Source of the DNA: Escherichia phage KS_A3
Direction: 5' to 3' (one strand)
DNA length: 58,418 nucleotides
Sequence record: PP627278.1
In this document: positions 22,205-54,809 of the stretch, one piece after another
How positions within the stretch are numbered: the stretch's first letter is position 1
Layout: each line of letters opens with the position of its first letter
Made by a program: the position numbers and the translations under genes
The notes under the pieces: model-generated
Told to the model about the DNA's origin: nothing
Database searches by the model: none
What the model saw: only the letters and a program-made list of their open reading frames with translations

Positions 22205-22407
22205 TTGCGCCTCCTGTACATGTATTGATCATACGCAGTCGCAATAATAGTGACTGGCCAGCAAGCGAGTATACATAGAAGACTTACAATCTTCTCCCAA
22301 CGTTTCTTATGGGCTAGCGCATAATCATAGTTATTCCAACAAAAGAAATAAGTCATTGTTGCAATAACTGCACCAATTACAAAATACATAACCACATATT
22401 CATGCAT
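22201..22407 (-). CDS. hypothetical membrane protein
   Basis: 68 aa, two hydrophobic segments; overlapping start/stop with neighbours. Confidence 0.45.
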   Translation of the reverse strand: MHEYVVMYFVIGAVIATMTYFFCWNNYDYALAHKKRWEKIVSLLCILACWPVTIIATAYDQYMYRRRK

Positions 22408-22588
22408 CGGTAAACTCCCAAATCAGATTATAATTATTTCCCGCTGGTACATAGCGCCCTGGACGTGGATCGAAGCTTTTCACTGAAAACTCCAGCGTTC
22501 CAGCGCTATATAGTTGCACCTTTTGTCCGTCCCACGGTCCACCTATCAATTTAAAAGTCTGTCGATAACCTTTTGCAGCTTTAGCCAT
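22400..22588 (-). CDS. hypothetical protein
   Basis: 62 aa ORF with SD AAGGAG. Confidence 0.4.
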   Translation of the reverse strand: MAKAAKGYRQTFKLIGGPWDGQKVQLYSAGTLEFSVKSFDPRPGRYVPAGNNYNLIWEFTDA

Positions 22589-22630
22589 GCTCGCTCCTTA
22601 AATACCCGCGCGAACGCGGGTATTTCTTTG

Positions 22631-22837
22631 TTACGCTTCCGGTGTTTCCGGTGATGGTTCATCAGGAACAACAATAACGTCAGCTAAAACTTTCAACGCT
22701 TCTTGTTGCTCCGCTGTCATATTATTCCAGTAATAGACGTGAATGTAAACTACTGGTTTGTCACCATGTTGCCACGGTTCGCGACTTACTACATCCGCAG
22801 CTAAATCGCTTGCTACGCTCTTTTCTTTACCAGCCAT
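22631..22837 (-). CDS. hypothetical protein
   Basis: 68 aa acidic ORF. Confidence 0.4.
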   Translation of the reverse strand: MAGKEKSVASDLAADVVSREPWQHGDKPVVYIHVYYWNNMTAEQQEALKVLADVIVVPDEPSPETPEA

Positions 22838-22869
22838 GCTAATGTACCCCTTTAAGGTTTTACACGCTG

Positions 22870-28154: not shown

Positions 28155-28224
28155 TGTCTTATACCAACTAAAAAGCCCATACCAGTATTATGACCGATAT
28201 GGGCTTGATCTGTAAAGCTATCTA

Positions 28225-28866
28225 TTATTTACAAGCTTCAAGGAACTCCCGGCGCCATTCTTTACCAATATCGCTACCATGCTCCAGTTCTGTAGCGCCC
28301 CGGAACGCTTTGGTAATAGTAGAGCTGCCACATACCTGCTTAACTCCGCGCGACTCCATGCACATATGCTTGGCGTCAACATAAACACATACAGCTTTCG
28401 GGTTTAAATGCTCCTGAATAGCGTCTGCAATCTGGTTAGTAAGACGTTCCTGAACTTGCAGTCGACGACTAAAAGCATCCACAACGCGAGACAGCTTACT
28501 AAGCCCAACAATCTTCCCATTGGGGACATAACCCACGACAGCATGACCGATGATAGGAGCCATGTGATGCTCACAATGACTATACACAGGGATATCACGG
28601 ACAATGACCATTTCATTGGTGTTTTCCGCCCCATCCTCAAAGGTTTTAAACAGACCAGCGATATCTACATCGTAACCGCTAAACCACGTTGCATAAGCTT
28701 TCGCTACACGCTCCGGAGTTTCCTCCAGCCCTGGGCGCAGAACCGCGCTAACTTCAATTTGGGATAGTAAAGTACGCACAGCGTTAGCAATACGGAATTG
28801 AACACCTTCACTATTAATACTATATTTAGACATGGTTTGCAGTTTCCTTGTTGTTAATGTGGTCAT
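28225..28866 (-). CDS. folE: GTP cyclohydrolase I
   Basis: 213 aa; SHCEHHM and GLSKL/QVQERLT motifs of FolE. Confidence 0.85.
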   Translation of the reverse strand: MTTLTTRKLQTMSKYSINSEGVQFRIANAVRTLLSQIEVSAVLRPGLEETPERVAKAYATWFSGYDVDIAGLFKTFEDGAENTNEMVIVRDIPVYSHCEHHMAPIIGHAVVGYVPNGKIVGLSKLSRVVDAFSRRLQVQERLTNQIADAIQEHLNPKAVCVYVDAKHMCMESRGVKQVCGSSTITKAFRGATELEHGSDIGKEWRREFLEACK

Positions 28867-36249: not shown

Positions 36250-37154
36250 TCTTTCCCGTAATAGTTAGCTACTTGATAGTTTTGACAACCCACTTTTTGA
36301 CCCTGAGTATCTACTGCAACGGAATGGAAATTGCAATACCATGTTCCATCATCTTTTGGCTCAAGAAATTGACATGTGCGACAGTTTACTTCCGGCATAG
36401 TTTTACGCCAGCACAATGAGGAGTGGTCACACCATTTACATTCGAAGAATGTAGAGTCTTTAAAAGCACGGTCAGGAATATCCGTAGCAATAGCAATCTG
36501 CACACCACGATCAATATACATGTCCGCAGTGACCGGATCAAATGGAATAATTTCTGCGTAAACTTCATCATCGTTCTTGTTTACAGCAAGATATAACGCT
36601 GCGCCAAGTCCAAGCTTTCGCATATACACGTTCATCTGCACATAGTGCTCAGGTTTAGCTTCTTTGACACCTTTAGCTTTCAGCTTCTTGAAAGACTTAT
36701 CATTATGGGTCTTCATTTCAGTAAGCACAGGCATTCCAGGCTGCACGTCCGGACAACCTATAACCACACCATCACAGGAACCGCCAAAGTGTCCACCCGC
36801 TTCACTGATACGGAACTGGTGTCCGTTTTCATCCTGCTGGTAGACTTGCATACCTGCCGCAAGAAGCATAGCAATGAAACGCGCTTCTTCCAGATGTCCG
36901 CGGTTAAATAAGCGGAGCTGGCGTCCATCGAACTCTTTACGCGTAGCCCAGCGATATCCGTAGAACAGCTTGCGAGCACATTGCTGTCCAATAAGGGAAG
37001 CGCCTAAGTGACTGCGATTTCCGCTTTCAGGACGATATGCGTCTTCAATTGTGGGAATGACTACGCCGAGATATTTACGGTAAGTCCCACCCTGATCTTT
37101 TTGCACACCGTCATTGATTGCTTGAAGTGTTTTTTCTGCAATATAAATAGCCAT
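36246..37154 (-). CDS. PD-(D/E)XK family nuclease (RecB/Cas4-like exonuclease)
   Basis: 302 aa; EMK and YVQMNVYM motifs plus C-terminal Cys cluster. Confidence 0.45.
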   Translation of the reverse strand: MAIYIAEKTLQAINDGVQKDQGGTYRKYLGVVIPTIEDAYRPESGNRSHLGASLIGQQCARKLFYGYRWATRKEFDGRQLRLFNRGHLEEARFIAMLLAAGMQVYQQDENGHQFRISEAGGHFGGSCDGVVIGCPDVQPGMPVLTEMKTHNDKSFKKLKAKGVKEAKPEHYVQMNVYMRKLGLGAALYLAVNKNDDEVYAEIIPFDPVTADMYIDRGVQIAIATDIPDRAFKDSTFFECKWCDHSSLCWRKTMPEVNCRTCQFLEPKDDGTWYCNFHSVAVDTQGQKVGCQNYQVANYYGKD

Positions 37155-37176
37155 TGGAGTACCTTAGAAAAATAAG

Positions 37177-37203
37177 CCGTCTTTCGACGGCTTAGGGACA
37201 CTA
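37177..37203 (-). terminator. hairpin terminator
   Basis: AGCCGTC-TTTC-GACGGCT followed by a U-run on the - strand. Confidence 0.4.
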
Positions 37204-37219
37204 CAGAGGGAGGGTTAAC

Positions 37220-38104
37220 TTACTGCTGCCACGGCGGGACTGCTGCTTGTGCCGGATGGGGTTCAGCTTGCTGCTGTGGCTGCGCTTGCTGTTGCGGTGC
37301 CGCTGCCTGGCCCGGCTGCGCTACCTGCTGCGCCCACGGTTGCTGAGCTGCTTCCGGTGCTACTGGCTGTTGTACCGGAGCTTGCTGAACTGGCTGCTGT
37401 GGCGCTGCGTTTTGAGCAGGGTTATCCCACGGCTGCGGTGCTGCGTTCTGCCACGGTTGAGCTGCTGCGACCTGCTGCGGTGCTGGTTGCTGCTGCACAG
37501 GCTGCTGAACTGTCTGCTGTTGCTGTACCGGAGCTTGCTGCTGTACAGGCGCTTGCTGTTGCTGAGCAAACGGGTTAGCTGCTGGCTGCTGTGGCGCTGC
37601 GCCCGGGAAAGTCGGTTGCTGTGCTGGCGCACCTGCACCAAACGGGTTAGCTACTGCTGGAGCACCCATTGATGGAGCCTCTGCTGCTTTTTCTGCATAT
37701 TTAACCGGATCGTTGATGTTAGCGTAACCGTTAGGCTCGTTGCTGTCTTCATAACCTTCCTGAGAACGAACTTTCAGACGCAGGTTCAGCGGAATGTTAT
37801 GCAGCTGAGCAGGGGTATCCCAGCGAATTACACCAACCGCATGGGACAGAGCACCCAGTTGCTCGTAAGCGATGCGTACAGTATCTTCGTTGTCGTTAAT
37901 GACGTTATAACGAGCAAAGATTTTACGACCTTTAGCAAAACCGTCAATGATGCTAAACGTTACCTGGATCGCCATACCGCCATTTTTGGTCGGTTTAAAT
38001 TCAGATGCTTCAATTACTGCTTTATACCAACCTTTCGGCAATGCGCCGTAAGAAGGTGCTTGATAGCTGCTCGCGTCAAAGTGGAAATTAGTTGGCATAG
38101 TCAT
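37220..38104 (-). CDS. putative ssDNA-binding protein with Q/P/A-rich disordered C-terminal tail
   Basis: 294 aa; about 135-aa globular N-terminus then about 160 aa of PQQ/AQQ low complexity; directly downstream of the Sak4-like ATPase. Confidence 0.4.
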   Translation of the reverse strand: MTMPTNFHFDASSYQAPSYGALPKGWYKAVIEASEFKPTKNGGMAIQVTFSIIDGFAKGRKIFARYNVINDNEDTVRIAYEQLGALSHAVGVIRWDTPAQLHNIPLNLRLKVRSQEGYEDSNEPNGYANINDPVKYAEKAAEAPSMGAPAVANPFGAGAPAQQPTFPGAAPQQPAANPFAQQQQAPVQQQAPVQQQQTVQQPVQQQPAPQQVAAAQPWQNAAPQPWDNPAQNAAPQQPVQQAPVQQPVAPEAAQQPWAQQVAQPGQAAAPQQQAQPQQQAEPHPAQAAVPPWQQ

Positions 38105-44576: not shown

Positions 44577-44792
44577 TCATTCCTCACAGTCTTTGATATT
44601 TTTAGGGATGAGAATATAACGATTGTGTTTTGGAAAATTATCACTGCAACAATTACAAAGACCTCCCATTACATTTTGATTACCTACAGCATGTAAAGAA
44701 CCGTCTAATCCGATAATGATTACATCATTATCAATGTAACCAAATTGATCAACCGGAGCCTGGCCTTCAATAACTTCTAATTCAATTTTCAT
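44577..44792 (-). CDS. hypothetical protein
   Basis: 71 aa (MKIELEV...), SD GAGGTG; track ORF over-extended to 44912. Confidence 0.4.
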   Translation of the reverse strand: MKIELEVIEGQAPVDQFGYIDNDVIIIGLDGSLHAVGNQNVMGGLCNCCSDNFPKHNRYILIPKNIKDCEE

Positions 44793-44800
44793 CTTACACC

Positions 44801-44875
44801 TCACAAAATATATGTAAACCAGAAATAACCAGCTACGAAAATAGCACCCGCAAATAATTTTAAAAGCTCGAACAT
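44801..44875 (-). CDS. 24-aa hydrophobic peptide (MFELLKLFAGAIFVAGYFWFTYIL)
   Basis: below the track's 60-aa cutoff; perfect SD GGAGG 5 nt before ATG; entirely hydrophobic. Confidence 0.35.
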   Translation of the reverse strand: MFELLKLFAGAIFVAGYFWFTYIL

Positions 44876-45033
44876 TGTTCCCTCCGTTAACTTTATGATG
44901 TAAGTATAGCAAGACTTACAATGTATGCAACAACTTTAGACTTGAAATACATCTATGAAATAGCACGATTTGCCTTTACCTCTGATCCGTCTAGCTGTAC
45001 TATTAACCCATAAACAGAGAGGAGGATTACAAA

Positions 45034-45258
45034 ATGGTCATGCTGAATAAAGTATATAGCACAATGGGCGCGGATTATAAAGTTGTACGTCATCCGCGTA
45101 CTGGTAAATTTGAAGCATACATCCGTCCAATGGGTGAAGGTTGGATGTATTACGGTACTTATGATGACGCTGAGCAAGCTTATAAAGAAGCGGAAAGTGT
45201 AGCGGAAGCATCCGAAATTATGGCAAGGTACGACGTCGATGATTACTACCTTAACTAA
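45034..45258 (+). CDS. hypothetical protein (lone + strand gene in early block)
   Basis: 74 aa, strong SD GAGAGGAGG, followed by bidirectional terminator. Confidence 0.5.
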   Translation: MVMLNKVYSTMGADYKVVRHPRTGKFEAYIRPMGEGWMYYGTYDDAEQAYKEAESVAEASEIMARYDVDDYYLN

Positions 45259-45290
45259 AAATAAAGGGCCTTTCGGCCCTTTATTTATTC
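45258..45290. terminator. bidirectional terminator
   Basis: AAAGGGCC-TTTC-GGCCCTTT hairpin flanked by A- and T-runs; between convergent genes. Confidence 0.55.
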
Positions 45291-47627
45291 CTCTTCTCCT
45301 AAGTTTGCCATAATACCTTCAACATCTTGCGTAATGCGCCAAGCTGCGCCAGTGAATCCCAGTTTGATAGTCTCCTCCCGTGTTACCGGAACAAGAGCAC
45401 CCATAGCAACCATTTCCTTGATCGTAGACTCGATCGCTGCGGACAATCCGTGGTGATAGTTTTTAAACGCGGACTTACTTGCAAGACGAGTAGTAATATC
45501 ACCCCGCGTGATAATGCCTTCCTTACGCAGATCTACACGTTTAACTTTCACCCAATCTTTAGTTAGATAATTCACACAAACCTGGCACATAGTACGGATA
45601 CGAGCTTCGTCATTAGTACCGATACCCCCACTATGCCATTCCTTCATAATGATATCCTGTCCATGACGCACAAAGTCCAAGGCCCATTGAACATGATAGG
45701 TCTGCACAACCGGATTGATCCAGTTTTCTCCCACAGCTAGCAGGGCGGATAGACGTAATACCTTCAGGTGCGCACGGTTCCAGGGCTGACGGATTGCTTC
45801 GTCTTTGGTTGCGTTAATATTACGGTCACATTCGTCGTTAAACTGATCACATAATGCTTCCGCATCCGGGCTAAACTGCACTTCAATACTTTGATGCTTT
45901 GCCATTGCGACTAAGGTGTGGTTAACAAGATGGCACACCATATCCCGCAAATGCTGATCCATTGTAGTCTGCTGGTTCTTGTTTAAAGGTGGTCGATCCC
46001 CTTCATAGCGGACAACATGGAAACGGGATAAGAAACCATCCTCCATCATTTCACGCGTCAACGCTTCAAAAAACGTGTCCGGTGTCGTTTCGCCCATGAT
46101 GCTATAGGCTACACCTTGTTGAGCTTCCGTATTATTAGCCTTATCAGAATAAGACATACCACCGACAATAGACATCTGACCGGACTTTTGATAAACATCG
46201 GTAAGGTCGTTCTTGAAGCTTTGCATCGGTGAACCTGCTGGCGCCGTTGCCATCGCTTTAATAATCTTACCAAACTCACCATTCAAGTTGATAAAAGATT
46301 GTTTGTCCGCAAAAGATTTACGCAGTGCGGAGCCGGAAGCACATCGGTCAAAAGATACAAAGCTATGAATCTGCGGAAACGGTTCCTGAAGCTGGCTAAC
46401 TATATTAGATAAGCCACTGTTCAACGTTTCTTTACCAACACCAGAACGGGCAATAAGGACGAAATATCCATTAAGACCGGATTGAGGAATCTGCCAAACC
46501 TTCCCGCATACGCCAGCCATAAATCCTAGTGCTGTCACAATAGAAATTTCTTTCACTGGCCGGACGGATGCTTTGTAGATGTACTTCGCAAGCTCCCCAG
46601 CAAGTCCCGGCGGCCAGTCAATAGCGGTTGCATCAATAGATGTACTTTCTGCAACTACTGTCTGCCCCTGTGTTGTTTCAACAGTTACGGGCATTTCCGC
46701 TACCTGCTGCATTGCACTGTGTGCCGCTTGCATACGGGCAGCATAATCCCGCGCCAGCGCCGCTACGTTTTCCTGGGCAATGCGCTCACGCTCCATACGA
46801 CCGCGGCACATGCGCAAACAACGGTCAATATGAACATTGTTCTTATTAGCCTTCTCACGTTTGCCCAGTGCACTGTAACGGAACAGACGGCGACATTGCT
46901 CATTACTTTCTGTGTAGAATGCATACATAGAAATAAGAGCAAGATCTGCTTCAGACTGGGAAGGGAATCCCATTTCAACCCATTCGCCATTGAATAGGCG
47001 TGCATACTTGTCCCCGTTGTCCGCTTCAAGTGCACGCTGGTGAATAGTTGCATCGTCTTCTACCGGATCTTTTTCTACCAGTTCAATTTCATATGTCTTG
47101 CGCTGAAGATCAATTTCATTCACAAGCATAGTAAGGTAATGATCACGTTCTGCAACTGGTTTGTTGTAGACGGGATTGCCCGTGCAGATAATAAAACGCT
47201 CCTGACTATAAACCTCGACACCATCACGTCGACGACCTTTACCGATGTTACCTCTTAACCACAGGTGAACACCCAAGCCTGAGCGGCTCACTTCGGTGTA
47301 AGTATCGAACGCAGTCATGATCTGTTCGAAGCGGCGCAACTGCTCCGGCGTCGTGTGCTTCTTGGGATCTGGTTCATTGGTTGCATTCTTCACATCCAGG
47401 TCGATGCAGGTGAACGGGTCTTGTGCAGTAAGCACAAAGCCAATATAAGGTTTATTGAAATGAGCGGCGCAACCTTTGGCAGCTTCAAACGTCATAAGCA
47501 TATCCGGATCGGTAACGTCCGCCGTCATCAAACGTCCAATATCGCTATCCCATACCAACGGCTTTTTATCCGCATCGGCGACCGCCCATTGTGGGAAAGC
47601 TTTAATTTCAGCGGGAAACAGTTCCAT
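45285..47627 (-). CDS. DNA primase (archaeo-eukaryotic primase / prim-pol type) with C-terminal NTPase-like domain
   Basis: 780 aa; AEP motifs CIDLDVK and SRSGLGVHLW; downstream P-loop-like ARSGVGKET. Confidence 0.6.
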   Translation of the reverse strand: MELFPAEIKAFPQWAVADADKKPLVWDSDIGRLMTADVTDPDMLMTFEAAKGCAAHFNKPYIGFVLTAQDPFTCIDLDVKNATNEPDPKKHTTPEQLRRFEQIMTAFDTYTEVSRSGLGVHLWLRGNIGKGRRRDGVEVYSQERFIICTGNPVYNKPVAERDHYLTMLVNEIDLQRKTYEIELVEKDPVEDDATIHQRALEADNGDKYARLFNGEWVEMGFPSQSEADLALISMYAFYTESNEQCRRLFRYSALGKREKANKNNVHIDRCLRMCRGRMERERIAQENVAALARDYAARMQAAHSAMQQVAEMPVTVETTQGQTVVAESTSIDATAIDWPPGLAGELAKYIYKASVRPVKEISIVTALGFMAGVCGKVWQIPQSGLNGYFVLIARSGVGKETLNSGLSNIVSQLQEPFPQIHSFVSFDRCASGSALRKSFADKQSFINLNGEFGKIIKAMATAPAGSPMQSFKNDLTDVYQKSGQMSIVGGMSYSDKANNTEAQQGVAYSIMGETTPDTFFEALTREMMEDGFLSRFHVVRYEGDRPPLNKNQQTTMDQHLRDMVCHLVNHTLVAMAKHQSIEVQFSPDAEALCDQFNDECDRNINATKDEAIRQPWNRAHLKVLRLSALLAVGENWINPVVQTYHVQWALDFVRHGQDIIMKEWHSGGIGTNDEARIRTMCQVCVNYLTKDWVKVKRVDLRKEGIITRGDITTRLASKSAFKNYHHGLSAAIESTIKEMVAMGALVPVTREETIKLGFTGAAWRITQDVEGIMANLGEEE

Positions 47628-47638
47628 GATTTATCCTT

Positions 47639-47854
47639 TTACTGAGAACTAACCATTGCACAACCGATGGCAGCAAATAAGTGCTTCTTAGTCTCGTTGA
47701 TCACTTTCTCTGCATCCAGATAGCTCTCATAATGTCCAAGGTAAATAATAGTCCCTGCAACCATAATATAAGCTGTGCGGTAATGCATATAATGCCCAAT
47801 GAACCATCCCTGCTCCCGAAGCTTATTTTGTCCAACTTCACTAAGTACCATCAT
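47639..47854 (-). CDS. hypothetical protein
   Basis: 71 aa ORF. Confidence 0.4.
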   Translation of the reverse strand: MMVLSEVGQNKLREQGWFIGHYMHYRTAYIMVAGTIIYLGHYESYLDAEKVINETKKHLFAAIGCAMVSSQ

Positions 47855-48054
47855 GACCTCCGACGCTTATCGCCTTGCATCTTTTCCAGGGCGGGCACTG
47901 CTAAGGAACGTTTGTAGATGTACTGGTTAGCAATTCTGATAGCGCCCGGAATGCTGTCACGTATGCGCGACATCTTAAACTTAGATATACCATAACGGTC
48001 TTCAATTTCCGCCGCCGTTATGTAGTTCAAATCAAATTCTGATTCGTGATCCAT
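47851..48054 (-). CDS. hypothetical protein
   Basis: start at ATG 48054 with strong SD GGAGGG (track start 48108). Confidence 0.4.
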   Translation of the reverse strand: MDHESEFDLNYITAAEIEDRYGISKFKMSRIRDSIPGAIRIANQYIYKRSLAVPALEKMQGDKRRRS

Positions 48055-48119: not shown

Positions 48120-48848
48120 TTATTGCGGAGTTGTGATAATATGGTTACCAACTTCTAACATAACGTCCTGCGGCTCCCTTCCCTGTCTTAAGCTAATGAG
48201 CCAATTATCAATATTAGGAAGAATATTTTTAGCCTGCTCAGAATCCCTGTAGAGTGCAAGGTCTACCCATTGAGCCCCAAGCTTCACACGGATAGCGGTA
48301 GCGGTTTCGTAATGGTGCAGGGAACACGTAGGCCAGCGACCACGATTATCCCAGTCCTGGATATCGCCGCTCCGGCGCATTCTGTACCAACGATGGGTTA
48401 GTTTATCCATTTCCTTATCCGTCAGAGCATCCCCTTTAAGTAACGCTTGGCGCTGTATCCAGGCCTTAAGCTCGGCGTTTTGCTTGCGCCCGGTTTTACC
48501 CTTATCTACTTTTACCTTAAGTGCTTCCTCATAGGGATCGTTACCCTTGCCCATGTGGTAATTGAATTTGCCCGTATAGCTGCGAAGCTCTTTGGCGTCC
48601 AGTTCATGTCCCAGCTTATCGCTCACCCATGCAAGAAAAGCCGCACGCTCTGCATCCAGCTTACCCGCTTTTTGTCTTACCGCTTTTTTAACTGGTTGCT
48701 CCACATCTTCGTTGAAGTAATCCTCCACCATAGCAAGCGCCTGAGCCTTAGTGGGCACGCCCCGTAACCGCGAGCACGCTTGCACGACCCAGGCAGCAAA
48801 GCACAAATCCTTAACCACAGTTTTAGATGTAATAGTTTCTTCGCTCAT
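48120..48848 (-). CDS. hypothetical protein (first gene downstream of AT-rich iteron region)
   Basis: 242 aa, SD AGGAGG. Confidence 0.5.
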   Translation of the reverse strand: MSEETITSKTVVKDLCFAAWVVQACSRLRGVPTKAQALAMVEDYFNEDVEQPVKKAVRQKAGKLDAERAAFLAWVSDKLGHELDAKELRSYTGKFNYHMGKGNDPYEEALKVKVDKGKTGRKQNAELKAWIQRQALLKGDALTDKEMDKLTHRWYRMRRSGDIQDWDNRGRWPTCSLHHYETATAIRVKLGAQWVDLALYRDSEQAKNILPNIDNWLISLRQGREPQDVMLEVGNHIITTPQ

Positions 48849-48859
48849 AAATCCTCCTA

Positions 48860-49150
48860 GTGAACTGGTAATGCCACTATAAAACAGCTATTAGCTATTT
48901 GCAAGAATTGTTTTAATATAGTGCTTAGTGGCGTACATAGTGGGCAAAGCGTGTATAGTACGCCGTTACTGGCTTTGTAAAAGTTTGCCACTATAAACCA
49001 CTATCCCACTATTCACTAATTTTTTATTTTTACACAGAGCAAAGTTTATAAGTTTACGGTTTTCCCCTTATTACCCCGTTTTCAAACAAAGAATTAGTAG
49101 TAGTAGTGAAAACGTGTAAATGCCACTATCACTACTATACTATTAATTAT
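48860..49150. repeat. iteron-like array of CCACTAT motifs in both orientations
   Basis: about ten copies of CCACTAT or its complement ATAGTGG clustered at 48872-49145. Confidence 0.6.
48876..48904 (-). promoter_or_regulatory. candidate sigma70-like promoter
   Basis: on - strand TTGCAA, 17-nt spacer, TATAGT; about 25 nt upstream of the 48848 start codon. Confidence 0.35.
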
Positions 49151-49517
49151 CTGAAAAAAGTTGGGAGTATACCCCTATAAACTTATAAACTTTCAGTCAA
49201 CTAACTAAAATAAACCTAATTAAACTAATATTAATAATAACTATAAATATATATAAAATAAGGATTTATTATTATTGTATATAGTACCTATTGGTATTAT
49301 GTGATGAGTTTATAGTCATTAAATAAACTCTATAAATTTTAATAAACCTGAACGGATGCAGATCAAAAACGAGAAGTCAAGTGCTTTTGAGGGAAATTTA
49401 TTGAACTATTGTAATCGGAAGGTATATCAAGCTATAATGCGCTTAATCGCGGGATATTGGAGGAGGACTTTATTGCGCGGTTAACCGGACCAGTAGGAGG
49501 GCTGGCCCGGAAGTAGT

Positions 49518-49844
49518 TTAGAGCTGTACAGGTGTGAAGTGGGCTAGCGTATCGTCGGACATAACACCCGACAGTTTTTCGCTTACCCATTCGGACCAAA
49601 TACTATCCGGTTCCTGGCGGTGTACAAACCAGATCTCGGATGTGCCTTCTTTGCGCATCGGTTGCACTTCTGCAAGGAACTTGTCCTGCATAAGGCGGGT
49701 GAAGCAGACGCTGGTCATTGGAACCGGCTTTTCGTCCTTATTGTAATAAGGGATTAATATTTTATTCCCGAAGTTGCCAACTTCATAAACTGTTCCTTTG
49801 CGAAGCCCTCTGATGTCTGTGTAAGAGCGGATGAACGTTTTCAT
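49518..49844 (-). CDS. hypothetical protein
   Basis: 108 aa ORF with SD AGGAG. Confidence 0.45.
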   Translation of the reverse strand: MKTFIRSYTDIRGLRKGTVYEVGNFGNKILIPYYNKDEKPVPMTSVCFTRLMQDKFLAEVQPMRKEGTSEIWFVHRQEPDSIWSEWVSEKLSGVMSDDTLAHFTPVQL

Positions 49845-49894
49845 GTTTACTCCTAGGGCTCCCGCAGAAGCCCGTTGGTTGATGTGGTTATAGA

Positions 49895-50377
49895 TTATGC
49901 GTCCAGTCCGTGGTTGGCGTGAAATTTGTAATGCTCTTCCGCTTGTTTACGGGCCTGTTTTGCGTCCTCTATAGTATCATATAAACCTAGATACTTTTTC
50001 AATCCGTTTATTTGAATGTAAGCCTGAAATTTACATGCCTTTTTATTAAAGTAAACTCCTGTTACTCCGGTAGAGTTATTTATTGCCCTGCTAAGATTTT
50101 TACTATTATCGCTTGGCAACACTAAGCGCAAATTCTCTATGCGGTCGTCCCATGTACAATGATTAATATGGTCTATTTGATGCCCTTCCGGTATCGGGCC
50201 TTTATGCAACTCCCATACTAACCTTGAACGACGATATAGTTTTCCCTTGTATCCTATCAGGATGTATCCGCGCTTATTTGGTACACCAGCTTTACTACCG
50301 ATAGAAATCTGTTTAGCTGGTTTTATTTTCCAAAATAATTCTCCGTTTTGATAGCTGAAGATATTATTTAAGTCCAT
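49895..50377 (-). CDS. HNH homing endonuclease with AP2-like DNA-binding domain
   Basis: 160 aa; IDHINHCTWDDRIENL HNH motif; GVTGVYFNKK...YLGLYDTIEDA AP2-like segment. Confidence 0.65.
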   Translation of the reverse strand: MDLNNIFSYQNGELFWKIKPAKQISIGSKAGVPNKRGYILIGYKGKLYRRSRLVWELHKGPIPEGHQIDHINHCTWDDRIENLRLVLPSDNSKNLSRAINNSTGVTGVYFNKKACKFQAYIQINGLKKYLGLYDTIEDAKQARKQAEEHYKFHANHGLDA

Positions 50378-50975
50378 GATAAGTTCTCCAAGCGTAGAAC
50401 TGAATGGCGACCGTTGTCCCGTTGTAAGAAGGCATTGCAGCTTTCATTTCTTTCAGCTCCGGCGTGCGGCCCAGTTCGGCTAAAAGTTTATCGCCCATTG
50501 CCCACACTTCGGCGGTTTTTCCTTTCAGAGGCTTGCGAGCGCCATTTTTGAAATCGCAGCGAGCAGCTTTTGCATCCTGTTTTGGCGCGGCAGCTTTTGG
50601 CTCTTCAATTTTGATCTCAGAAACCTGCGTGGCAGCTTTTGCGTGTTTCATATCTTTCTCTTCCTCCTGCTCCAGAGCTTCGAGGCAGCTTTTGACGATT
50701 TCCGGATTTACCATCGGGCGCAGTACCGAGACGCTGGCAGCTGGCGCGGCGGTTGGTGCTGGGACTTTCTGCTCCGGCTGTTGCGCTTTTTTATGGTCGC
50801 GCAGTACCTGAAGCACTTCCTTCTCGACGATGTAAAAACCAATCTCATCCTGATGGATTAACTGCTCGTGTGCGTCGCGTGCAACCTGGCCCCAGCGGGT
50901 CTTAAGGGCGCGGCGTGCATTCGTTTTCATGGTGTAACGCATTTTGTCCTGTTCGCGGTGAGTTACTTTAGACAT
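50364..50975 (-). CDS. hypothetical protein
   Basis: 203 aa, SD AAGGAG. Confidence 0.45.
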   Translation of the reverse strand: MSKVTHREQDKMRYTMKTNARRALKTRWGQVARDAHEQLIHQDEIGFYIVEKEVLQVLRDHKKAQQPEQKVPAPTAAPAASVSVLRPMVNPEIVKSCLEALEQEEEKDMKHAKAATQVSEIKIEEPKAAAPKQDAKAARCDFKNGARKPLKGKTAEVWAMGDKLLAELGRTPELKEMKAAMPSYNGTTVAIQFYAWRTYHGLK

Positions 50976-51054
50976 GGTATAGCTCCTTTAGTTATCTTGC
51001 TTAAGTAGGTTTATTATAACAGACTGTGTTTCAGTCTGTTAGATATAAATCAAC

Positions 51055-51279
51055 TTATTTAACCATCAAGGCCCATCTTTTATAGCCGTTCAGCTCCAGT
51101 CTATGACCGTGATCGTTGCAATAACGTTGGATATTATTAAAGTCGTTATCATTCATATCGCTAACATCAATATTAAAATAGTTGCGCTTTGCAGCTGTAA
51201 CGTATTGGGACAATTGTATTGAGTACAGATGTTCAATGTTGTCGATAATAGCTTGCTGAACTTTAGTGATAGTAGCCAT
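51055..51279 (-). CDS. hypothetical protein
   Basis: 74 aa; preceded on - strand by an A8-G9 homopolymer pair acting as SD. Confidence 0.4.
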   Translation of the reverse strand: MATITKVQQAIIDNIEHLYSIQLSQYVTAAKRNYFNIDVSDMNDNDFNNIQRYCNDHGHRLELNGYKRWALMVK

Positions 51280-51286
51280 GATGCAA

Positions 51287-51303
51287 CCCCCCCCCTTTTT
51301 TTT
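51287..51303. repeat. C9-T8 homopolymer tract
   Basis: CCCCCCCCCTTTTTTTT read directly; 7 nt upstream of the - strand ATG. Confidence 0.9.
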
Positions 51304-51532
51304 ATGTGGTTAAGCAGTATTTCTTTGTTGAAGTAATAATAGTCTTGCATCGTGATATTAAATAGGCCAAAAGTGCTCTTTTAGAATTGTTTTGCATCTA
51401 GTGAAAAATACGCTTGCCCTGCATGTTTAGCACTAAGGGCCTAACTAACATCACATCATCTGGAGTATTCGCGCAGGTGTACACATACATATAAAGCTGC
51501 CAAATATTTTTATAAAAAGATGCAAAAAGGTG

Positions 51533-51561
51533 TAGACACATGATCGGTCTAGCACTACTAT
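51533..51561 (+). promoter_or_regulatory. candidate promoter for + strand late/accessory block
   Basis: TAGACA, 17-nt spacer, TACTAT, about 45 nt upstream of the 51608 start. Confidence 0.3.
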
Positions 51562-51607
51562 ATACATACCGCAAGGTGCTACAAATTAACTTAAAGGGGT
51601 CTACATC

Positions 51608-51892
51608 ATGTCCATCGTCACTATGTCGTTCTTCGACCATTGCAATAACGAAAAACAAATTATCGTGAACCTGCAAAAAGGATCTGTTGTCGCACGCAAT
51701 GCTAACCGCCAATGCATCGCGCTAACCGATTTTGCTTTCCGCCTTAACGTGGACAACACTACCGCCAAAAATATCGTTCACGATACAGCGTTGGAAGCTG
51801 CTCACGCTGCGAAGGATAAAGGTATCCGCGACGCACGCAAAATCATGCACAAGGCGCTCGGCATCACGTTCTTCGTTGGGATTAAGGGGTAA
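51608..51892 (+). CDS. hypothetical protein
   Basis: 94 aa ORF with SD. Confidence 0.45.
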   Translation: MSIVTMSFFDHCNNEKQIIVNLQKGSVVARNANRQCIALTDFAFRLNVDNTTAKNIVHDTALEAAHAAKDKGIRDARKIMHKALGITFFVGIKG

Positions 51893-51897
51893 CTACT

Positions 51898-52038
51898 ATG
51901 TCACGCAAATACACGCTTACACGCGCACAGCACGCGTTATTATTGCAGGTTATGCGCGCAGAATATGCAGTTCATGGCTGGCATAGTGCCATGATGCGCG
52001 GTAAAAGCATATATGCGGACATGCGCTCGCAAGGATAA
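51898..52038 (+). CDS. hypothetical small protein (46 aa)
   Basis: below track cutoff; SD AAGGGG; basic (MSRKYTLTRAQHALLLQVMRAEYAVHGWHSAMMRGKSIYADMRSQG). Confidence 0.3.
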   Translation: MSRKYTLTRAQHALLLQVMRAEYAVHGWHSAMMRGKSIYADMRSQG

Positions 52039-52465
52039 CGCACACAGCAGCACCACAGCGAGCTAATGTACATAGGTAATGGTAATGCATTAGCTCGGGC
52101 GAAACAGGCGCACAGCGTCGCACACAGCTCGCACAGCGCACACAGACCCACGCAGGCCCAGCCGCGCGACCCGACCCACCCTTTTCCAGGTACTTGGATC
52201 GCTGGGGCGTGCCCTGTCTATCCTGATAGTAAGTCCTTGCCTAAATCTCACCTGTCACATCCCTGTCCGCCTACATCCATGACCCCACCTACCTTCTTTT
52301 TGAATATATTGCGCTCATCCTTTCTAAATATATGGATTTTGGTAGTAAATTCTGAGTCGTCAACGTATAATTCGTCTTGTAGCTGCTCCATAGCTATCAT
52401 CTTTAAGCGGATGCAACCAATTTCTATCAGTTCACACCTGTTTTTAGAGCATCGAGGAGGTATTT

Positions 52466-53664: not shown

Positions 53665-53889
53665 ATGCGCTTACTCATGGTGTTAGGCGTTATACTTGCC
53701 GCTTTCGTTGTATTTGCAATTGTAGACTCTAAAGAAATGGAGCGGCAAAACTGCCAACGTACTGGTAACAGCCGGGATGATATCATTTGGCAATATATTT
53801 ACGATGCAAAAGGTAATGTTATGTCAATGTATCCTCAGGTTATTACTGAGTATGAATATAAATGTAATGACCGTAACAGGTGGAGATAA
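53665..53889 (+). CDS. hypothetical membrane protein
   Basis: 74 aa, N-terminal TM helix. Confidence 0.45.
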   Translation: MRLLMVLGVILAAFVVFAIVDSKEMERQNCQRTGNSRDDIIWQYIYDAKGNVMSMYPQVITEYEYKCNDRNRWR

Positions 53890-54083
53890 TAATGGATAGA
53901 CTATCCGATGAGCGCGTTGCTAAGCTTGCAGAATATGACTGTGCAAGCAATGAGGAGGTTATGTCTTTAGCACAAGAGGTGAAGGAACTTCGAGCTGTAG
54001 CAAAGGACTTCCTGCGTCGTAATAAATATGGTCCTTTGTTCTATCGTGATCTGTATAACCGTTTTAAGGAGATTGTGAAATGA
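53880..54083 (+). CDS. hypothetical protein
   Basis: 67 aa ORF. Confidence 0.4.
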   Translation: MEIIMDRLSDERVAKLAEYDCASNEEVMSLAQEVKELRAVAKDFLRRNKYGPLFYRDLYNRFKEIVK

Positions 54084-54349
54084 TTACCGCTCAAGAAGCT
54101 CGTGAATTAAGCGATAAGCTGGATATTAGCGAAGATATTGAATTTATCAGTAACAGCATTCGCGTAGCTGCTACAAAGGGATACAATAAAGTATCACTGG
54201 TAACAAAATACGGATCTGTTGGCAATCCCGACACTCAAGACCCAACCACTATGAAGATTGCTAAATGGTTAGCTGATTCTGGTTTTACGGTGTTATATTA
54301 TCCTTCAATGGACCAACGTGATAACGAGCGTACTGAGGTAGCATGGTGA
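54080..54349 (+). CDS. hypothetical protein
   Basis: 89 aa ORF. Confidence 0.4.
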   Translation: MITAQEARELSDKLDISEDIEFISNSIRVAATKGYNKVSLVTKYGSVGNPDTQDPTTMKIAKWLADSGFTVLYYPSMDQRDNERTEVAW

Positions 54350-54416
54350 TTGAAGAAAATATCAAATATTGGAAAGGCTTTATTGACGAAATGTTGAAAC
54401 CATTGGAGAAGAAATA

Positions 54417-54809
54417 ATGCTATTAGTCGTCACCGGAGGTCGAGATTTTAAGCATGTGGAGTATATTTACGCTCAATTGGATAAGCTGCATATGCAAAGA
54501 AGGATAACCACACTTCGCCACGGTGACGCTGACGGTGTTGACCGCATTTGCGCACATTGGGCAGAGCGCAACGGTATTAAGACAGAAGCGTTCCCTGCCC
54601 CGTGGGACAATCTTTCCTTACCAAATACCAAGATACGGTATAACGCCAAGGGTGCTTATAATGCACAAGCTGGCGCATACCGTAACCAATTAATGTTGGA
54701 TACTGATCCTAAACCAGATCACGCTATTGTGTTTCCTGGCGGAGCTGGTACTATGGATATGTACAGACGGATTAAAGCATCCGGTATTCCTTACACTTTA
54801 GCGGAGTAA
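54417..54809 (+). CDS. SLOG/DUF2493-like Rossmann-fold protein
   Basis: 130 aa; VTGGRDF...HGDADGVDRICAHWA...FPGGAGT pattern typical of SLOG (Smf/DprA-LOG) family. Confidence 0.4.
   Translation: MLLVVTGGRDFKHVEYIYAQLDKLHMQRRITTLRHGDADGVDRICAHWAERNGIKTEAFPAPWDNLSLPNTKIRYNAKGAYNAQAGAYRNQLMLDTDPKPDHAIVFPGGAGTMDMYRRIKASGIPYTLAE

What the first reader, a model, noticed from the sequence alone, without database searches (positions are those of the whole stretch)
48849..49517. AT-rich 0.67 kb intergenic region with an iteron-like CCACTAT array and a long-range inverted repeat: candidate replication origin or early control region
This is the largest gene-free gap in the window. It has about ten copies of CCACTAT in both orientations (48872-49145), a 15-bp inverted repeat pair AAGTTTATAAGTTTA / TAAACTTATAAACTT (about 49031-49045 and 49177-49191) and a 200-bp stretch of very high AT content. 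A - strand TTGCAA-17-TATAGT promoter is embedded at 48876-48904. Iterons plus an AT-rich unwinding element are the classic signature of an origin.
Basis: seen in the sequence. Interest (0 to 1): 0.55.

Follow-up and report, generated by a model that had tools for sequence, protein, structure and literature searches.

The report
Probable replication origin of Seuratvirus phage
This 0.67-kb gene-free stretch of an E. coli phage (KS_S4, a Seuratvirus) is most likely the phage's replication origin fused to the control region of its replication genes: two families of short repeats surround the most easily melted DNA of the genome, and across about 40 related phages each family changes in step with a different phage protein.

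Summary
The window is Escherichia phage KS_S4 (Seuratvirus). Positions 48849-49517 are its largest ORF-free stretch. The stretch holds 11 CACTA-core repeats (0.37 expected), a perfect 16-bp inverted repeat, and the least stable duplex of the whole genome (49196-49345).

Comparison with about 31 GenBank relatives and 8 metagenomic contigs shows two separate repeat systems. Motif 1 is CCACTAT in KS_S4. At the same positions it is replaced by ACCCTAT or TGGAAT in lineages that carry a different version of a 67-aa protein (47851-48054, minus strand). That protein models as a MerR/Xis-type winged helix and sits just upstream of the primase-helicase. One motif 1 copy overlaps the -10 of the leftward promoter.

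Nine copies flank the AT-rich core. In every phage whose primase-helicase carries the alternative helicase/C-terminal cassette (about 60% identical), these units read AAAAC. No exception was found, although conserved DNA lies between the two loci.

Best reading: an iteron-plus-unwinding-element origin served by a self-loading primase-helicase (SaPI Rep or P4 alpha style), with an accessory and autoregulatory winged-helix array and two divergent promoters. Binding and replication were not tested. GC skew does not discriminate.

The parts
45285..47627 (-). Primase-helicase gene (780 aa): AEP prim-pol + NrS-1-like helix-bundle domain (aa 1-300, conserved in all lineages), then DUF3987 helicase + about 120-aa C-terminal domain (aa ~300-780 = nt 45285-46685). 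The second part is a dimorphic cassette, type I or type II.
   Evidence: domains. (aa 1-300 ~100% identical, aa 300-780 ~60%, last 120 aa 26-60% between types; the nucleotide island 45285-46685 is flanked by 94-97% identity on both sides).
47851..48054 (-). 67-aa protein (phrog_11967) with a predicted MerR/Xis-type winged helix; candidate binder of motif 1. A homolog sits upstream of the primase gene in every lineage examined.
48120..48848 (-). 242-aa protein (phrog_27223), unknown function; first gene left of the gap in KS_S4. Missing in the GottfriedDienst/Skure/VogelGryff/STP-SP5/yong3 lineages.
48876..48904 (-). Leftward sigma-70-like promoter TTGCAA-17-TATAGT for the replication operon. 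Its -10 is the reverse complement of the CCACTAT copy at 48874-48880. AGGAGG at 48858-48853, ATG at 48848.
   Evidence: Sequence. TTGCAA conserved in CAjan. Promoters were annotated by others at the equivalent place in SA80RD and SA126VB.
48917..48960 (.). Motif 1 cluster 1, left arm: ATAGTG/TAGTGG/ATAGTGG/ATAGTA (reverse orientation), spaced 7-18 bp.
   Evidence: These are conserved islands in alignment A1 and are replaced by TAGGG in CAjan.
48987..49018 (.). Motif 1 cluster 1, right arm: GCCACTATA, CCACTAT, CCACTAT, CACTAAT (forward orientation), spaced 10, 8, 7 bp.
49041..49056 (.). Left arm of the perfect 16-bp inverted repeat; equals two motif 2 units (AAGTTTATAAGTTTA).
   Evidence: In type II phages it reads AAAGTTTTGGGTTTTTGG and is still complementary to their right arm.
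49095..49143 (.). Motif 1 cluster 2: (TAG)4TG, then 15 bp, then GCCACTAT CACTACTAT ACTAT. An imperfect palindrome centred near 49116, enclosed by the 16-bp inverted repeat.
   Evidence: I9. (single-strand DNA fold z = -3.2, 0 of 200 shuffles as stable). (TAGGGGTACTAGGGTA / ACCCTATACCCTACTCCCTAT in CAjan).
49170..49225 (.). Four motif 2 units (TAAAC at 49178, 49186, 49211, 49221) on the left flank of the AT core. Includes the right arm of the inverted repeat (49178-49193) and the invariant AACTTTCAGTCAAC (49188-49201).
49196..49345 (.). AT-rich candidate DNA-unwinding element, the least stable 150 bp of the genome. The core 49243-49300 is invariant in 16 phages of both types.
49306..49347 (.). 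Three motif 2 units on the right flank of the AT core: GAGTTTATAG (GTTTA at 49308, inverted relative to the left flank) and TAAAC at 49324 and 49343.
49347..49517. Block C. 49395-49517 is 96.7-99.1% identical in all 33 database records; 49347-49394 is replaced in the GottfriedDienst group, Dru_SM1 and STP-SP5. More conserved than the flanking genes.
49409..49438 (+). Rightward sigma-70-like promoter TTGTAA-18-TATAAT (TTGTGA in most relatives). In KS_S4 it would give an RNA antisense to the 3' end of the 108-aa gene. In SLUR76, Dru_SM1 and STP-SP5 an HNH gene follows it, with homology to KS_S4 breaking right after the -10 in SLUR76 and Dru_SM1.
   Evidence: 10 of 12 matches..
49485..49510 (.). 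9-bp hairpin CCGGACCAG-N8-CTGGCCCGG just after the stop codon of the 108-aa gene. Terminator-like on either strand but without a proper U-tract.
   Evidence: z -2.9 and -2.5. Annotated as a terminator in SA80RD and SA126VB.

Best explanation
The gap is the replication origin of the phage, fused to the divergent-promoter control region of its replication operon. It contains two independent protein-recognition systems.

(1) Origin core. Nine TAAAC/GTTTA units (motif 2) lie on both sides of a 100-150-bp AT-rich core, with opposite orientations across it. I infer that they are iterons read by the type-specific helicase/C-terminal part of the phage's own AEP-primase/DUF3987-helicase. In this model the protein binds them, melts the AT core, loads itself as a ring and primes with its own prim-pol domain, after which the phage PolB takes over.

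(2) Accessory and regulatory array. At least 11 CACTA-core sites (motif 1) form two inverted clusters between the origin core and the leftward promoter, and one site overlaps that promoter's -10. I infer that they are bound cooperatively by the 67-aa MerR/Xis-type winged-helix protein encoded two genes downstream. That would autoregulate the replication operon and probably shape or license the origin complex.

The invariant rightward promoter at 49409-49438 closes the region on the other side.

Shown here: the sequence features, their enrichment, their conservation pattern, the two co-variations and the predicted fold of the 67-aa protein. Inferred: who binds what, melting, and replication start.
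For: Anatomy.
- CACTA occurs 11 times against 0.37 expected, and nowhere else clustered.
- TAAAC occurs 9 times against 2.4 under a local composition model (P 0.001), on both flanks of the AT core.
- The AT core is the least stable DNA of the genome by 5 sd.

Motif 2 and the helicase.
- The primase-helicase has a sharp internal breakpoint. Residues 1-300 are ~100% identical in all lineages. Residues 300-780 come in two types that are 60% identical overall and 26-60% in the last 120 residues.
- All 12 GenBank phages with type I have the KS_S4-type block B. None of the 19 with type II does.
- In a 16-phage alignment, many of the fixed differences between types fall on the repeated units, TAAAC (8-9 copies) versus AAAAC (6-10 copies, TAAAC 0-2), while the AT core between them is invariant.
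- 8 further metagenomic/IMG-VR contigs obey the same rule.
- The two loci are separated by about 1 kb of 94-97% identical DNA and by a third, independently varying cassette.
- A whole-genome four-way scan flags the same pattern in only a few other stretches. Three were checked: one is the presence or absence of a homing endonuclease gene, and the other two fail the association across the 31 phages. One isolated 150-bp window at 28201-28350 was not followed up.

Motif 1 and the winged helix.
- At homologous positions CACTAT/TAGTG becomes CCCTAT/TAGGG in CAjan, Seurat and SLUR76 and TGGAAT in the GottfriedDienst group and STP-SP5.
- This follows the putative recognition helix of the 67-aa protein: SKFKMSRIR or SKFKLSRMR with CACTAT, SRYKLCRNR with CCCTAT, SRRKLCSLR with TGGAAT.
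- The protein models as a MerR/Xis winged helix.

Generality.
- A 700-825-bp gap with lineage-specific repeats and an 11-19% GC tract precedes the winged-helix-primase gene pair in Hafnia phage yong3, Salmonella phage STP-SP5 and Vibrio phage VhaS-tm.

Precedent.
- SaPI origins are 6-12 short iterons split by an AT-rich region, with at least two on each side pointing in opposite directions. They are read by the C-terminal winged helix of a self-loading Rep or PriRep helicase (PMC9371898).
- The KS_S4 primase domain matches SaPI5 PriRep (PDB 7ola) at E 8e-11.
- A DUF3987 protein has been shown to be a helicase (PMC11724360).
Against: - No binding, melting or replication data exist for any Seuratvirus; literature searches found nothing.
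- Both co-variations are correlations among related, linked sequences. There are effectively four haplotypes: I+a, I+b, II+a', II+c. The number of independent events is therefore small, and for motif 1 simple linkage to the adjacent gene is the null hypothesis.
- The C-terminal domain of the helicase could not be shown to be a DNA-binding winged helix.
- yong3 has TAAAC-like units although its C-terminal part is as far from type I (61%) as type II is.
- Dru_SM1 carries a TGGAATAA cluster next to the rightward promoter without a GottfriedDienst-type winged-helix protein.
- Providencia phage PSTCR4 and Pantoea phage Vid5 have the same gene pair but only about 70 bp upstream of it.
- The cumulative GC-skew minimum is 3 kb away, at 52504.
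- Unlike SaPI and PICI origins, the site is upstream of the operon, not just after the helicase gene.
Confidence: 0.6

Rival explanations
1. A purely transcriptional control region. Two divergent sigma-70 promoters carry operator arrays for a small autoregulatory winged-helix protein, working like a Cox/Xis/MerR-type switch. The AT-rich tract acts as an UP-element or curved-DNA region, and replication starts elsewhere.
For: - Both promoters match the consensus and are conserved.
- A motif 1 copy overlaps the -10 of the leftward promoter, and in SA80RD copies overlap its -35 and spacer.
- The 67-aa protein resembles transcription factors and excisionases.
- In STP-SP5, yong3, SLUR76 and Dru_SM1 the rightward promoter is followed by a gene.
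- The GC-skew minimum lies elsewhere.
Against: - It does not explain why a second repeat family flanking the AT core switches in perfect step with the helicase/C-terminal cassette of the primase-helicase, 2.5-4 kb away across conserved DNA.
- 11 or more sites in two inverted clusters are far more than one promoter needs.
- The sites occur nowhere else in the genome, so the protein is not a general regulator.
- The AT tract is the extreme stability minimum of the genome and has an invariant core.
Confidence: 0.2
2. One reading: the CCACTAT array is the iteron set, and the adjacent 242-aa protein (48120-48848) is the origin-binding initiator, as with lambda O and its iterons.
For: - The 242-aa gene and the CCACTAT block travel together in BLAST comparisons.
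- Its CAjan homolog (44% identical) goes with ACCCTAT.
- Its N-terminal half is well conserved between the KS_S4 and SA80RD lineages, which share CCACTAT.
Against: - GottfriedDienst, Skure, VogelGryff, STP-SP5 and yong3 have no homolog yet keep a repeat array at the same place. yong3 even has ACCCCTATA.
- The family is tiny: 11 clusters among 5.8 billion proteins.
- It has no Pfam hit and no fold match.
- The helicase-linked repeats are a different family (motif 2).
Confidence: 0.1
3. A packaging (pac) or partition-like site: a TerS/RppC/Par-like small winged-helix protein assembles on repeats to mark the DNA for the terminase or for positioning.
For: - One GenBank record labels the homolog 'redirecting packaging protein'.
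- Three records (SLUR76, SLUR26, ECP2304) start within 1 kb of this region.
Against: - The phage has its own TerS/TerL at the conventional genome start, about 9.5 kb away.
- The gene is consistently the upstream partner of the primase-helicase gene across genera.
- The co-variation with a helicase cassette has no packaging rationale.
- Record starts are arbitrary in most assemblies.
Confidence: 0.03
4. The main function is a non-coding RNA locus: the invariant block C encodes a small antisense RNA from the rightward promoter (lambda oop-like), or the long inverted repeat forms an RNA structure in the leftward transcript.
For: - The rightward promoter is invariant.
- The predicted 70-80-nt transcript folds into two hairpins (z -2.9) and is antisense to the 3' end of the 108-aa gene.
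- The 16-bp inverted repeat is kept as a repeat in a different sequence version in type II phages.
Against: - No Rfam family matches even at E <= 1.
- Block C is invariant, so there is no covariation to test.
- Downstream of the -10 the sequence is replaced by HNH genes in some phages.
- The left arm of the repeat is only partial in CAjan.
- An RNA does not explain the repeat arrays or their protein-linked switching.
- It could coexist as a minor component.
Confidence: 0.05

Closest known systems
SaPI / PICI replication module: Pri-Rep (or fused PriRep) self-loading helicase plus ori
   Same: Short 5-6-nt iterons (6-12) split by an AT-rich region, at least two per side in opposite orientation. 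Origin specificity resides in the C-terminal part of the helicase, with no separate loader. A primase is fused to or adjacent to the helicase (PMC9371898). The KS_S4 AEP domain matches SaPI5 PriRep at E 8e-11. A small Xis/AlpA-type gene lies upstream of the primase gene in such islands (my own knowledge).
   Different: The helicase here is DUF3987-type, not the MCM-like AAA+ Rep. The candidate origin is about 1.2 kb upstream of the gene's start, at a divergent promoter region, not immediately after its stop codon. It carries a second, larger repeat array for another protein. The host element is a virulent 58-kb siphovirus, not a satellite. Nothing has been tested experimentally.
Satellite phage P4 alpha protein with ori and crr (my own knowledge, not checked here)
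   Same: One polypeptide combines primase, helicase and a C-terminal origin-binding domain that reads octamer repeats present in both orientations.
   Different: P4 alpha has a different primase and an SF3 helicase. P4 needs a second distant repeat region (crr). No winged-helix accessory array is known there.
Lambdoid phage O protein and ori iterons (my own knowledge)
   Same: A type-specific pairing of initiator domain and iterons that is kept across a mosaic phage family. Iterons lie next to an AT-rich tract. Transcription nearby matters for firing. A small antisense promoter (oop) lies just upstream of the replication genes.
   Different: The lambda origin lies inside the O gene, O is not a helicase, and the host DnaB is recruited through P.
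Papillomavirus E1/E2 and SV40 large-T origins (my own knowledge; SV40 paper PMC9894130 only listed)
   Same: Inverted short repeats for a self-loading hexameric helicase next to an AT-rich element. In papillomavirus, a separate sequence-specific protein with its own neighbouring sites helps load the helicase and also regulates transcription.
   Different: These are eukaryotic viruses with unrelated proteins. The analogy concerns architecture only.
P2 Cox / lambda Xis / RdfS-type small winged-helix proteins on multi-site arrays
   Different: There is no integrase or attachment site. The arrays are in inverted clusters rather than one direct series. The gene partner is a primase-helicase.
Plasmid pRN1 orf56/orf904 replicon (PMC4234260, abstract seen)
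   Same: A small DNA-binding repressor gene lies directly upstream of an AEP prim-pol/helicase gene in one operon. The upstream promoter region is essential for replication.
   Different: This is an archaeal plasmid. The repressor is of CopG type. The essential cis region includes sequence downstream of the replicase gene.

Membership tests
Iteron-type origin of a self-loading primase-helicase (SaPI Rep / P4 alpha kind) | Several copies of a short repeat on both sides of an AT-rich region, with opposite orientations across it | tested here: met
   TAAAC at 49178, 49186, 49211, 49221 on the left. GTTTA at 49308, then TAAAC at 49324 and 49343 on the right. Two more GTTTA at 49044 and 49052. 9 copies observed against 2.4 expected locally.
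Iteron-type origin of a self-loading primase-helicase (SaPI Rep / P4 alpha kind) | An easily melted AT-rich unwinding element | tested here: met
   49196-49345 is the least stable 150 bp of 58 kb (dG -149.8 against a mean of -203.1, sd 10). Actual melting was not tested.
Iteron-type origin of a self-loading primase-helicase (SaPI Rep / P4 alpha kind) | Iteron sequence matched to the initiator's specificity domain | tested here: met
   Tested by co-variation only. Helicase/C-terminal type I goes with TAAAC and type II with AAAAC in 31 GenBank phages and 8 contigs, with no exception. The other candidate segments that were checked are excluded.
Iteron-type origin of a self-loading primase-helicase (SaPI Rep / P4 alpha kind) | The initiator carries a DNA-binding (winged-helix) domain at its C-terminus | tested here: inconclusive
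   Pfam finds only DUF3987. A profile of the last 135 aa finds nothing among PDB sequences. That this is the most divergent part of the protein is suggestive only.
Iteron-type origin of a self-loading primase-helicase (SaPI Rep / P4 alpha kind) | Origin placed immediately downstream of the helicase gene (SaPI/PICI rule) | tested here: not met
   The helicase gene ends at 45285. The candidate origin is at 49040-49350, upstream of the operon. DNA just after the gene (44790-45289) is ordinary and conserved.
Iteron-type origin of a self-loading primase-helicase (SaPI Rep / P4 alpha kind) | Specific binding, ATP-independent melting, and replication of a plasmid carrying the site | not testable with these tools
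   Needs EMSA or footprinting, KMnO4 probing, plasmid or marker-frequency assays.
MerR/Xis-type winged-helix protein with a multi-site array | beta-alpha-alpha-beta-beta(-alpha) winged-helix fold | tested here: met
MerR/Xis-type winged-helix protein with a multi-site array | Cognate sites change when the recognition helix changes | tested here: met
   Four helix versions correspond to three motif versions at homologous positions. Caveats: gene and sites are adjacent, so linkage is the null hypothesis. The Dru_SM1 TGGAATAA cluster and the yong3 helix do not fit neatly.
Sigma-70 promoter / operator control region | -35 and -10 hexamers with 16-18-bp spacing, placed to drive the flanking genes | tested here: met
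   Minus strand 48904-48876 (9 of 12 matches) and plus strand 49409-49438 (10 of 12). Region-wide, the number of consensus matches is not above the shuffled expectation (9 against 7.3), so support comes from conservation and position. Activity was not tested.
cos/pac packaging site | Lies next to or within the small-terminase gene, or coincides with the virion DNA ends | tested here: not met
   terS/terL are at the start of the related genomes, about 9.5 kb from the gap. Virion ends are unknown.
Known RNA families (Rfam 15) and tRNA | Covariance-model or tRNA match | tested here: not met
   No match at E <= 1 in 48500-49900. No tRNA or tmRNA in the window.

The most novel reading that the evidence does not exclude
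A two-key origin in a virulent phage. A Xis/MerR-like winged-helix protein polymerises on 11 or more sites and licenses or recruits an AEP-primase/DUF3987-helicase onto its own type-specific iterons, as papillomavirus E2 does for E1. The two specificities sit in independently exchangeable cassettes. They are kept diverse because they act as replicon-identity determinants: they would prevent co-infecting relatives, satellites or defence systems from using or targeting the origin.
Probability: 0.2. Interest if true: 0.65.

Novelty: new member of a known kind. Interest (0 to 1): 0.5.

Why it matters
No replication origin has been described for Queuovirinae. This subfamily comprises the 7-deazaguanine-modified Seuratvirus and Nonagvirus phages, and includes five BASEL collection model phages, Bas21-Bas25.

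If this reading is right, it gives a mapped origin, a candidate origin-recognition domain in a DUF3987 primase-helicase, and a candidate accessory factor. DUF3987 enzymes are widespread in phages and mobile elements but have no known origins.

Nature has also supplied the controls. Type I and type II helicase cassettes come with matching TAAAC and AAAAC sites, in phages that are otherwise about 95% identical over much of their genomes. Swap experiments are therefore straightforward.

It also corrects database annotation: two small 'hypothetical proteins' called inside the gap are probably not genes. If the reading is wrong, the region is still a well-defined control region.

Tried and rejected
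- Rfam scan of 48500-49900 at E <= 1 found nothing. The tRNA/tmRNA scan found nothing.
- Small ORFs in the gap: the 44-aa ORF translates to unrelated peptides in KS_S4 and WildeMaa. The 42-aa ORF is cut by lineage-specific replacements. Both are rejected as genes.
- I first suspected that the primase-helicase did not co-vary with anything, because its N-terminal 1.2 kb is 93-97% identical everywhere. That was wrong for the C-terminal 480 aa.
- I tested whether the C-terminal half of the 242-aa protein or the 67-aa protein tracks motif 2. Neither does: CAjan shares motif 2 with KS_S4 but differs in both proteins.
- GC skew gives a plateau from 49200 to 52066 and a minimum at 52504. The minus-strand genes right of the gap have skew -0.02 against -0.10 for the rest, but 5.7% of control windows are as high. 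This is not decisive.
- By eye, one relaxed DnaA-box-like TTTTACACA near 49027 is not conserved in SA80RD-type phages, and I saw no IHF consensus. Both were dropped.
- The NrS-1 prim-pol recognition sequences GTGG/GTGA and TTTGGTTA (PMC8718748) resemble parts of ATAGTGG and of the type II units. The prim-pol/HBD part is identical in lineages with different motifs, so primase template recognition cannot explain the switching.
- A profile of the helicase C-terminal 135 aa against PDB sequences gave no informative hit.
- Literature searches for Seuratvirus, Nonagvirus, CAjan or 9g origins, promoters or termini found nothing relevant.
Full report
**Identity and setting.** The window is Escherichia phage KS_S4 (PP627282.1; Seuratvirus, Queuovirinae). 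It matches at 100% identity, and record coordinate = window coordinate + 111. Genes from about 22 kb to about 51.7 kb run on the minus strand. The finding lies inside that block. On its right is a 108-aa gene (49518-49844). On its left is the replication operon, all on the minus strand:
- a 242-aa gene (48120-48848);
- a 67-aa gene (47851-48054);
- a 71-aa gene (47639-47854);
- the 780-aa primase-helicase (45285-47627).

**The observation.**
- The gap is the largest ORF-free stretch of the window (669 bp; the next is 198 bp).
- Exact CCACTAT occurs 9 times in the window, 6 of them in the gap.
- The core CACTA/TAGTG occurs 11 times in 48860-49150. The genome-based expectation is 0.37 (P ~1e-13), and a local Markov model gives 1.07. 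No second cluster exists anywhere.
- The inverted repeat is 16 bp and perfect, at 49041-49056 / 49178-49193.
- 49200-49299 is 14% GC.
- By nearest-neighbour energy, 49196-49345 is the least stable 150 bp of the genome by more than 5 sd. The runner-up is its left neighbour.
- The minus-strand promoter TTGCAA-17-TATAGT at 48904-48876 is picked up by the scan. So is a better plus-strand one, TTGTAA-18-TATAAT at 49409-49438.
- The two small ORFs annotated in the gap are not conserved as ORFs.

**The gap is conserved in place but built of cassettes.** BLAST against 50,697 phage records finds 33 related records and three blocks.
- Block A (48849-49150, the CCACTAT array) occurs in 15 records and travels with the 242-aa gene.
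- Block B (49155-49394, AT-rich) is shared at 94% or more by 12 phages.
- Within block C, 49395-49517 is 96.7-99.1% identical in all records, which is more conserved than the flanking genes.

Every relative I fetched has a 630-1250-bp gap at this place. K-mer counts show that each lineage has its own dominant repeat:
- CCACTAT in KS_S4, SeppeHuegi, KS_A8, SA80RD, Greed and others;
- ACCCTATA in CAjan, Seurat and SLUR76;
- TGGAATAA in GottfriedDienst, Skure and VogelGryff.

**Motif 1 (CACTAT class).** Among phages that share CCACTAT, the repeat copies are the conserved islands in otherwise 70-75% identical DNA (alignment A1). Against CAjan-type phages the copies are replaced in place:
- TATAGTACGCC becomes TATAGGGTAACCC;
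- (TAG)4TG becomes TAGGGGTACTAGGGTA;
- AAATGCCACTATCACTACTATACTAT becomes AAATACCCTATACCCTACT-CCCTAT.

All 12 CCCTAT copies in the 5.3-kb CAjan locus lie in its gap.

The copies form two inverted clusters. The first has four copies facing left at 48917-48960 and four facing right at 48987-49018. The second has (TAG)4TG at 49095-49108 opposite three copies at 49123-49143. One further copy is the -10 of the leftward promoter.

Which protein goes with motif 1? The 242-aa protein co-varies, but it is absent from the GottfriedDienst group, STP-SP5 and yong3, which still have arrays. It has no detectable fold relatives.

Its second helix reads as follows:
- SKFKMSRIR or SKFKLSRMR in CACTAT phages;
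- SRYKLCRNR in CCCTAT phages;
- SRRKLCSLR in both TGGAAT lineages, GottfriedDienst and STP-SP5.

This is the expected pattern for a binder. But the gene is adjacent to the sites, so linkage alone could produce it. Two observations do not fit neatly. Dru_SM1 has a TGGAATAA cluster beside the rightward promoter but an SA80RD-type protein. yong3 has an ACCCCTATA array with yet another helix.

**Motif 2 (TAAAC class) and the helicase.** KS_S4 has nine such units:
- GTTTA at 49044, 49052 and 49308;
- TAAAC at 49178, 49186, 49211, 49221, 49324 and 49343.

Four of them lie just left of the AT core, and the first unit on the right side is inverted. In SA80RD-type and GottfriedDienst-type phages each of these units reads AAAAC/GTTTT instead. 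The two arms of their inverted repeat are still complementary (AAAGTTTTGGGTTTTTGG / CCAAAAACCTAAAACTTT).

Counts in the same 345 bp:
- six KS_S4/CAjan-type phages: TAAAC 8-9, AAAAC 1-4;
- ten SA80RD/GottfriedDienst-type phages: TAAAC 0-2, AAAAC 6-10.

The enrichment holds against a local composition model: 9 against 2.4 (P 0.001) and 10 against 2.6 (P 0.0002). Between the switched units the AT core ATAAATATATATAAAATAAGGATTTATTA.TA.TGTATATAGTACCTATTGGTATTAT.TGA is invariant in all 16 phages.

Neither the 242-aa nor the 67-aa protein tracks this switch, because CAjan shares TAAAC with KS_S4 yet differs in both proteins. The primase-helicase does track it.
- A tblastn search with its last 271 residues splits the Seuratviruses into 12 phages at 99.3% or more and 19 at about 60%.
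- The 12 are exactly the phages with KS_S4-type block B.
- The protein has a sharp breakpoint. Residues 1-300 (AEP prim-pol plus NrS-1-like helix bundle) are ~100% identical between types. Residues 300-780 (DUF3987 helicase, Pfam E 9e-14, plus about 120 C-terminal residues) are about 60% identical, falling to 26-60% at the end.
- At the nucleotide level the diverged island 45285-46685 is flanked by 94-97% identity on both sides.

The helicase cassette and block B are therefore two separate islands about 2.5 kb apart. Between them lie a conserved kilobase and the independently varying motif 1 cassette.

I then asked whether any other segment shows the same split. A whole-genome scan looked for positions where KS_S4 resembles CAjan (type I) but not GottfriedDienst or SA80RD (both type II). 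It flags the following:
- the helicase cassette;
- block B;
- a homing-endonuclease gene that is present or absent;
- two stretches of small genes (51601-52200 and 53701-54600);
- one isolated 150-bp window at 28201-28350, which I did not follow up.

The two stretches of small genes fail the association once all 31 phages are considered. Eight further informative IMG/VR and metagenome contigs obey both pairings. I found no recombinant that breaks either rule.

**Wider relatives.** The pair 'small winged-helix gene, then primase-helicase gene' recurs in Hafnia phage yong3, Salmonella phage STP-SP5, Providencia phage PSTCR4, Pantoea phage Vid5 and Vibrio phage VhaS-tm.
- Three of them have 700-825-bp gaps upstream with their own repeats and an 11-19% GC tract. 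The Vibrio phage has AGGTTACG in both orientations on both sides of its AT tract.
- PSTCR4 and Vid5 have only about 70 bp there.
- In STP-SP5, yong3, SLUR76 and Dru_SM1 the rightward promoter is followed by a gene. In three of them that gene is an HNH endonuclease, and in SLUR76 and Dru_SM1 homology to KS_S4 breaks right after the -10.

So the gap is, ancestrally, a divergent promoter region as well.

**Interpretation.** A replicative helicase cassette co-varies with short repeats that flank the genome's weakest duplex. This is the signature of an initiator and its iterons. It matches the published description of SaPI origins almost point for point: 6-12 short iterons, an AT-rich centre, at least two per side in opposite orientation, read by the helicase's C-terminal domain, and no separate loader (PMC9371898). 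The KS_S4 primase domain is detectably related to SaPI5 PriRep. A DUF3987 protein has been shown to be a helicase that works with an AEP prim-pol (PMC11724360).

The motif 1 array, with a copy on the leftward promoter, fits an autoregulator that may also shape the origin. From my own knowledge, this resembles the way papillomavirus E2 assists E1, or the way Cox/Xis-type proteins coat arrays of sites.

I put about 0.6 on 'origin plus control region', 0.2 on 'control region only', and the rest on the alternatives listed.

**Limits.**
- Everything about binding and firing is inferred.
- There are effectively four haplotypes, so the number of independent evolutionary events is small.
- The DNA-binding nature of the helicase C-terminus is untested.
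- GC skew does not discriminate: the minimum is at 52504, with a plateau from 49200.
- The site is not where SaPI/PICI origins sit.
- Nonagvirus was not examined.
- I found no publication on origins, promoters or termini of these phages.

**Novelty.** This is a new, still computational, member of a known kind: an iteron-plus-unwinding-element origin of a self-loading primase-helicase. It has an unusual second specificity layer. The interest is moderate. It is useful because natural type I/II pairs among BASEL phages make it directly testable.

Noticed in passing
window 45285-46685 (within the primase-helicase gene): Sharp mosaic breakpoint at about residue 300. The AEP prim-pol/HBD part is ~100% identical across Seuratviruses, while the DUF3987 helicase + C-terminal part exists in two ~60%-identical versions, and a third in Hafnia phage yong3. 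The domain has been swapped within an otherwise homogenised gene.
   Followed up: yes
window 49438/49439; L010 2785-3239; L008 2545-3001; L017 2199-2675: In SLUR76 and Dru_SM1 the homology to KS_S4 ends exactly after the -10 of the rightward promoter and an HNH endonuclease gene follows. STP-SP5 also has an HNH gene downstream of this promoter. KS_S4 and CAjan instead carry an HNH gene at 49895-50377 (minus strand) that GottfriedDienst and SA80RD lack at this position. The surroundings of the gap are a hot spot for homing-endonuclease insertion.
   Followed up: partly
L005 2455-2505; L008 2455-2505; reverse complement of L017: A palindromic TGGAATAA cluster (TTATTCCAGATTCCGGAATAATTGGAATAATGGAATAA) sits directly upstream of the -35 of the rightward promoter in the GottfriedDienst group, STP-SP5 and Dru_SM1. 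Dru_SM1 has it without the GottfriedDienst-type 67-aa protein, so its binder is unclear.
   Followed up: partly
L005 1950-1995: GottfriedDienst has four tandem AAGTTTTG units (period about 9-10 bp) plus further copies upstream of its winged-helix gene. This extra direct array of the type II motif 2 has no counterpart in KS_S4.
   Followed up: no
window 48917-48943 and 49095-49108: The reverse-oriented motif 1 copies contain GTGG or GTGA, which are the efficient template recognition sequences reported for the related NrS-1 prim-pol (PMC8718748). The type II motif 2 (TTTTGG) resembles its other site, TTTGGTTA. This is probably coincidence, because CAjan-type arrays (TAGGG) lack GTG while the prim-pol domain is identical.
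   Followed up: partly
window 48857-48991 (-) and 49356-49484 (+): These are annotated as hypothetical proteins CDS0070 and CDS0071 in GenBank PP627282.1, and similarly in KS_A8, SeppeHuegi and WildeMaa. They are not conserved as coding sequence across lineages, so they are probably spurious gene calls over regulatory DNA.
   Followed up: yes
window 37001-38000: A 1-kb window with 53.8% GC and positive GC skew (+0.06) inside the minus-strand block, where all neighbours are 41-47% GC with negative skew. This may be a compositionally foreign gene.
   Followed up: no
window 22205-22869: A 665-bp stretch without any ORF of >=80 aa at the other strand-switch point of the genome (cumulative GC-skew maximum at 21557). 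If replication is bidirectional from about 49.2 kb on a circular 58.4-kb molecule, the antipode would be near 20 kb.
   Followed up: no
window 49518-51712: The minus-strand genes to the right of the gap have almost no GC skew (-0.02), against -0.10 for the 26 kb of minus-strand genes to its left. Only 5.7% of equally long control windows are that high. This would fit a replication-direction change at the gap but is not significant on its own.
   Followed up: partly
search hits (ECP2304, SLUR76, SLUR26): Three GenBank records start 0.3-1.1 kb from this region, and ECP2304 (63.6 kb) holds the block C sequence twice. This may be an assembly artefact or terminal redundancy. Virion ends of Seuratviruses were not found in the literature searched.
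   Followed up: no
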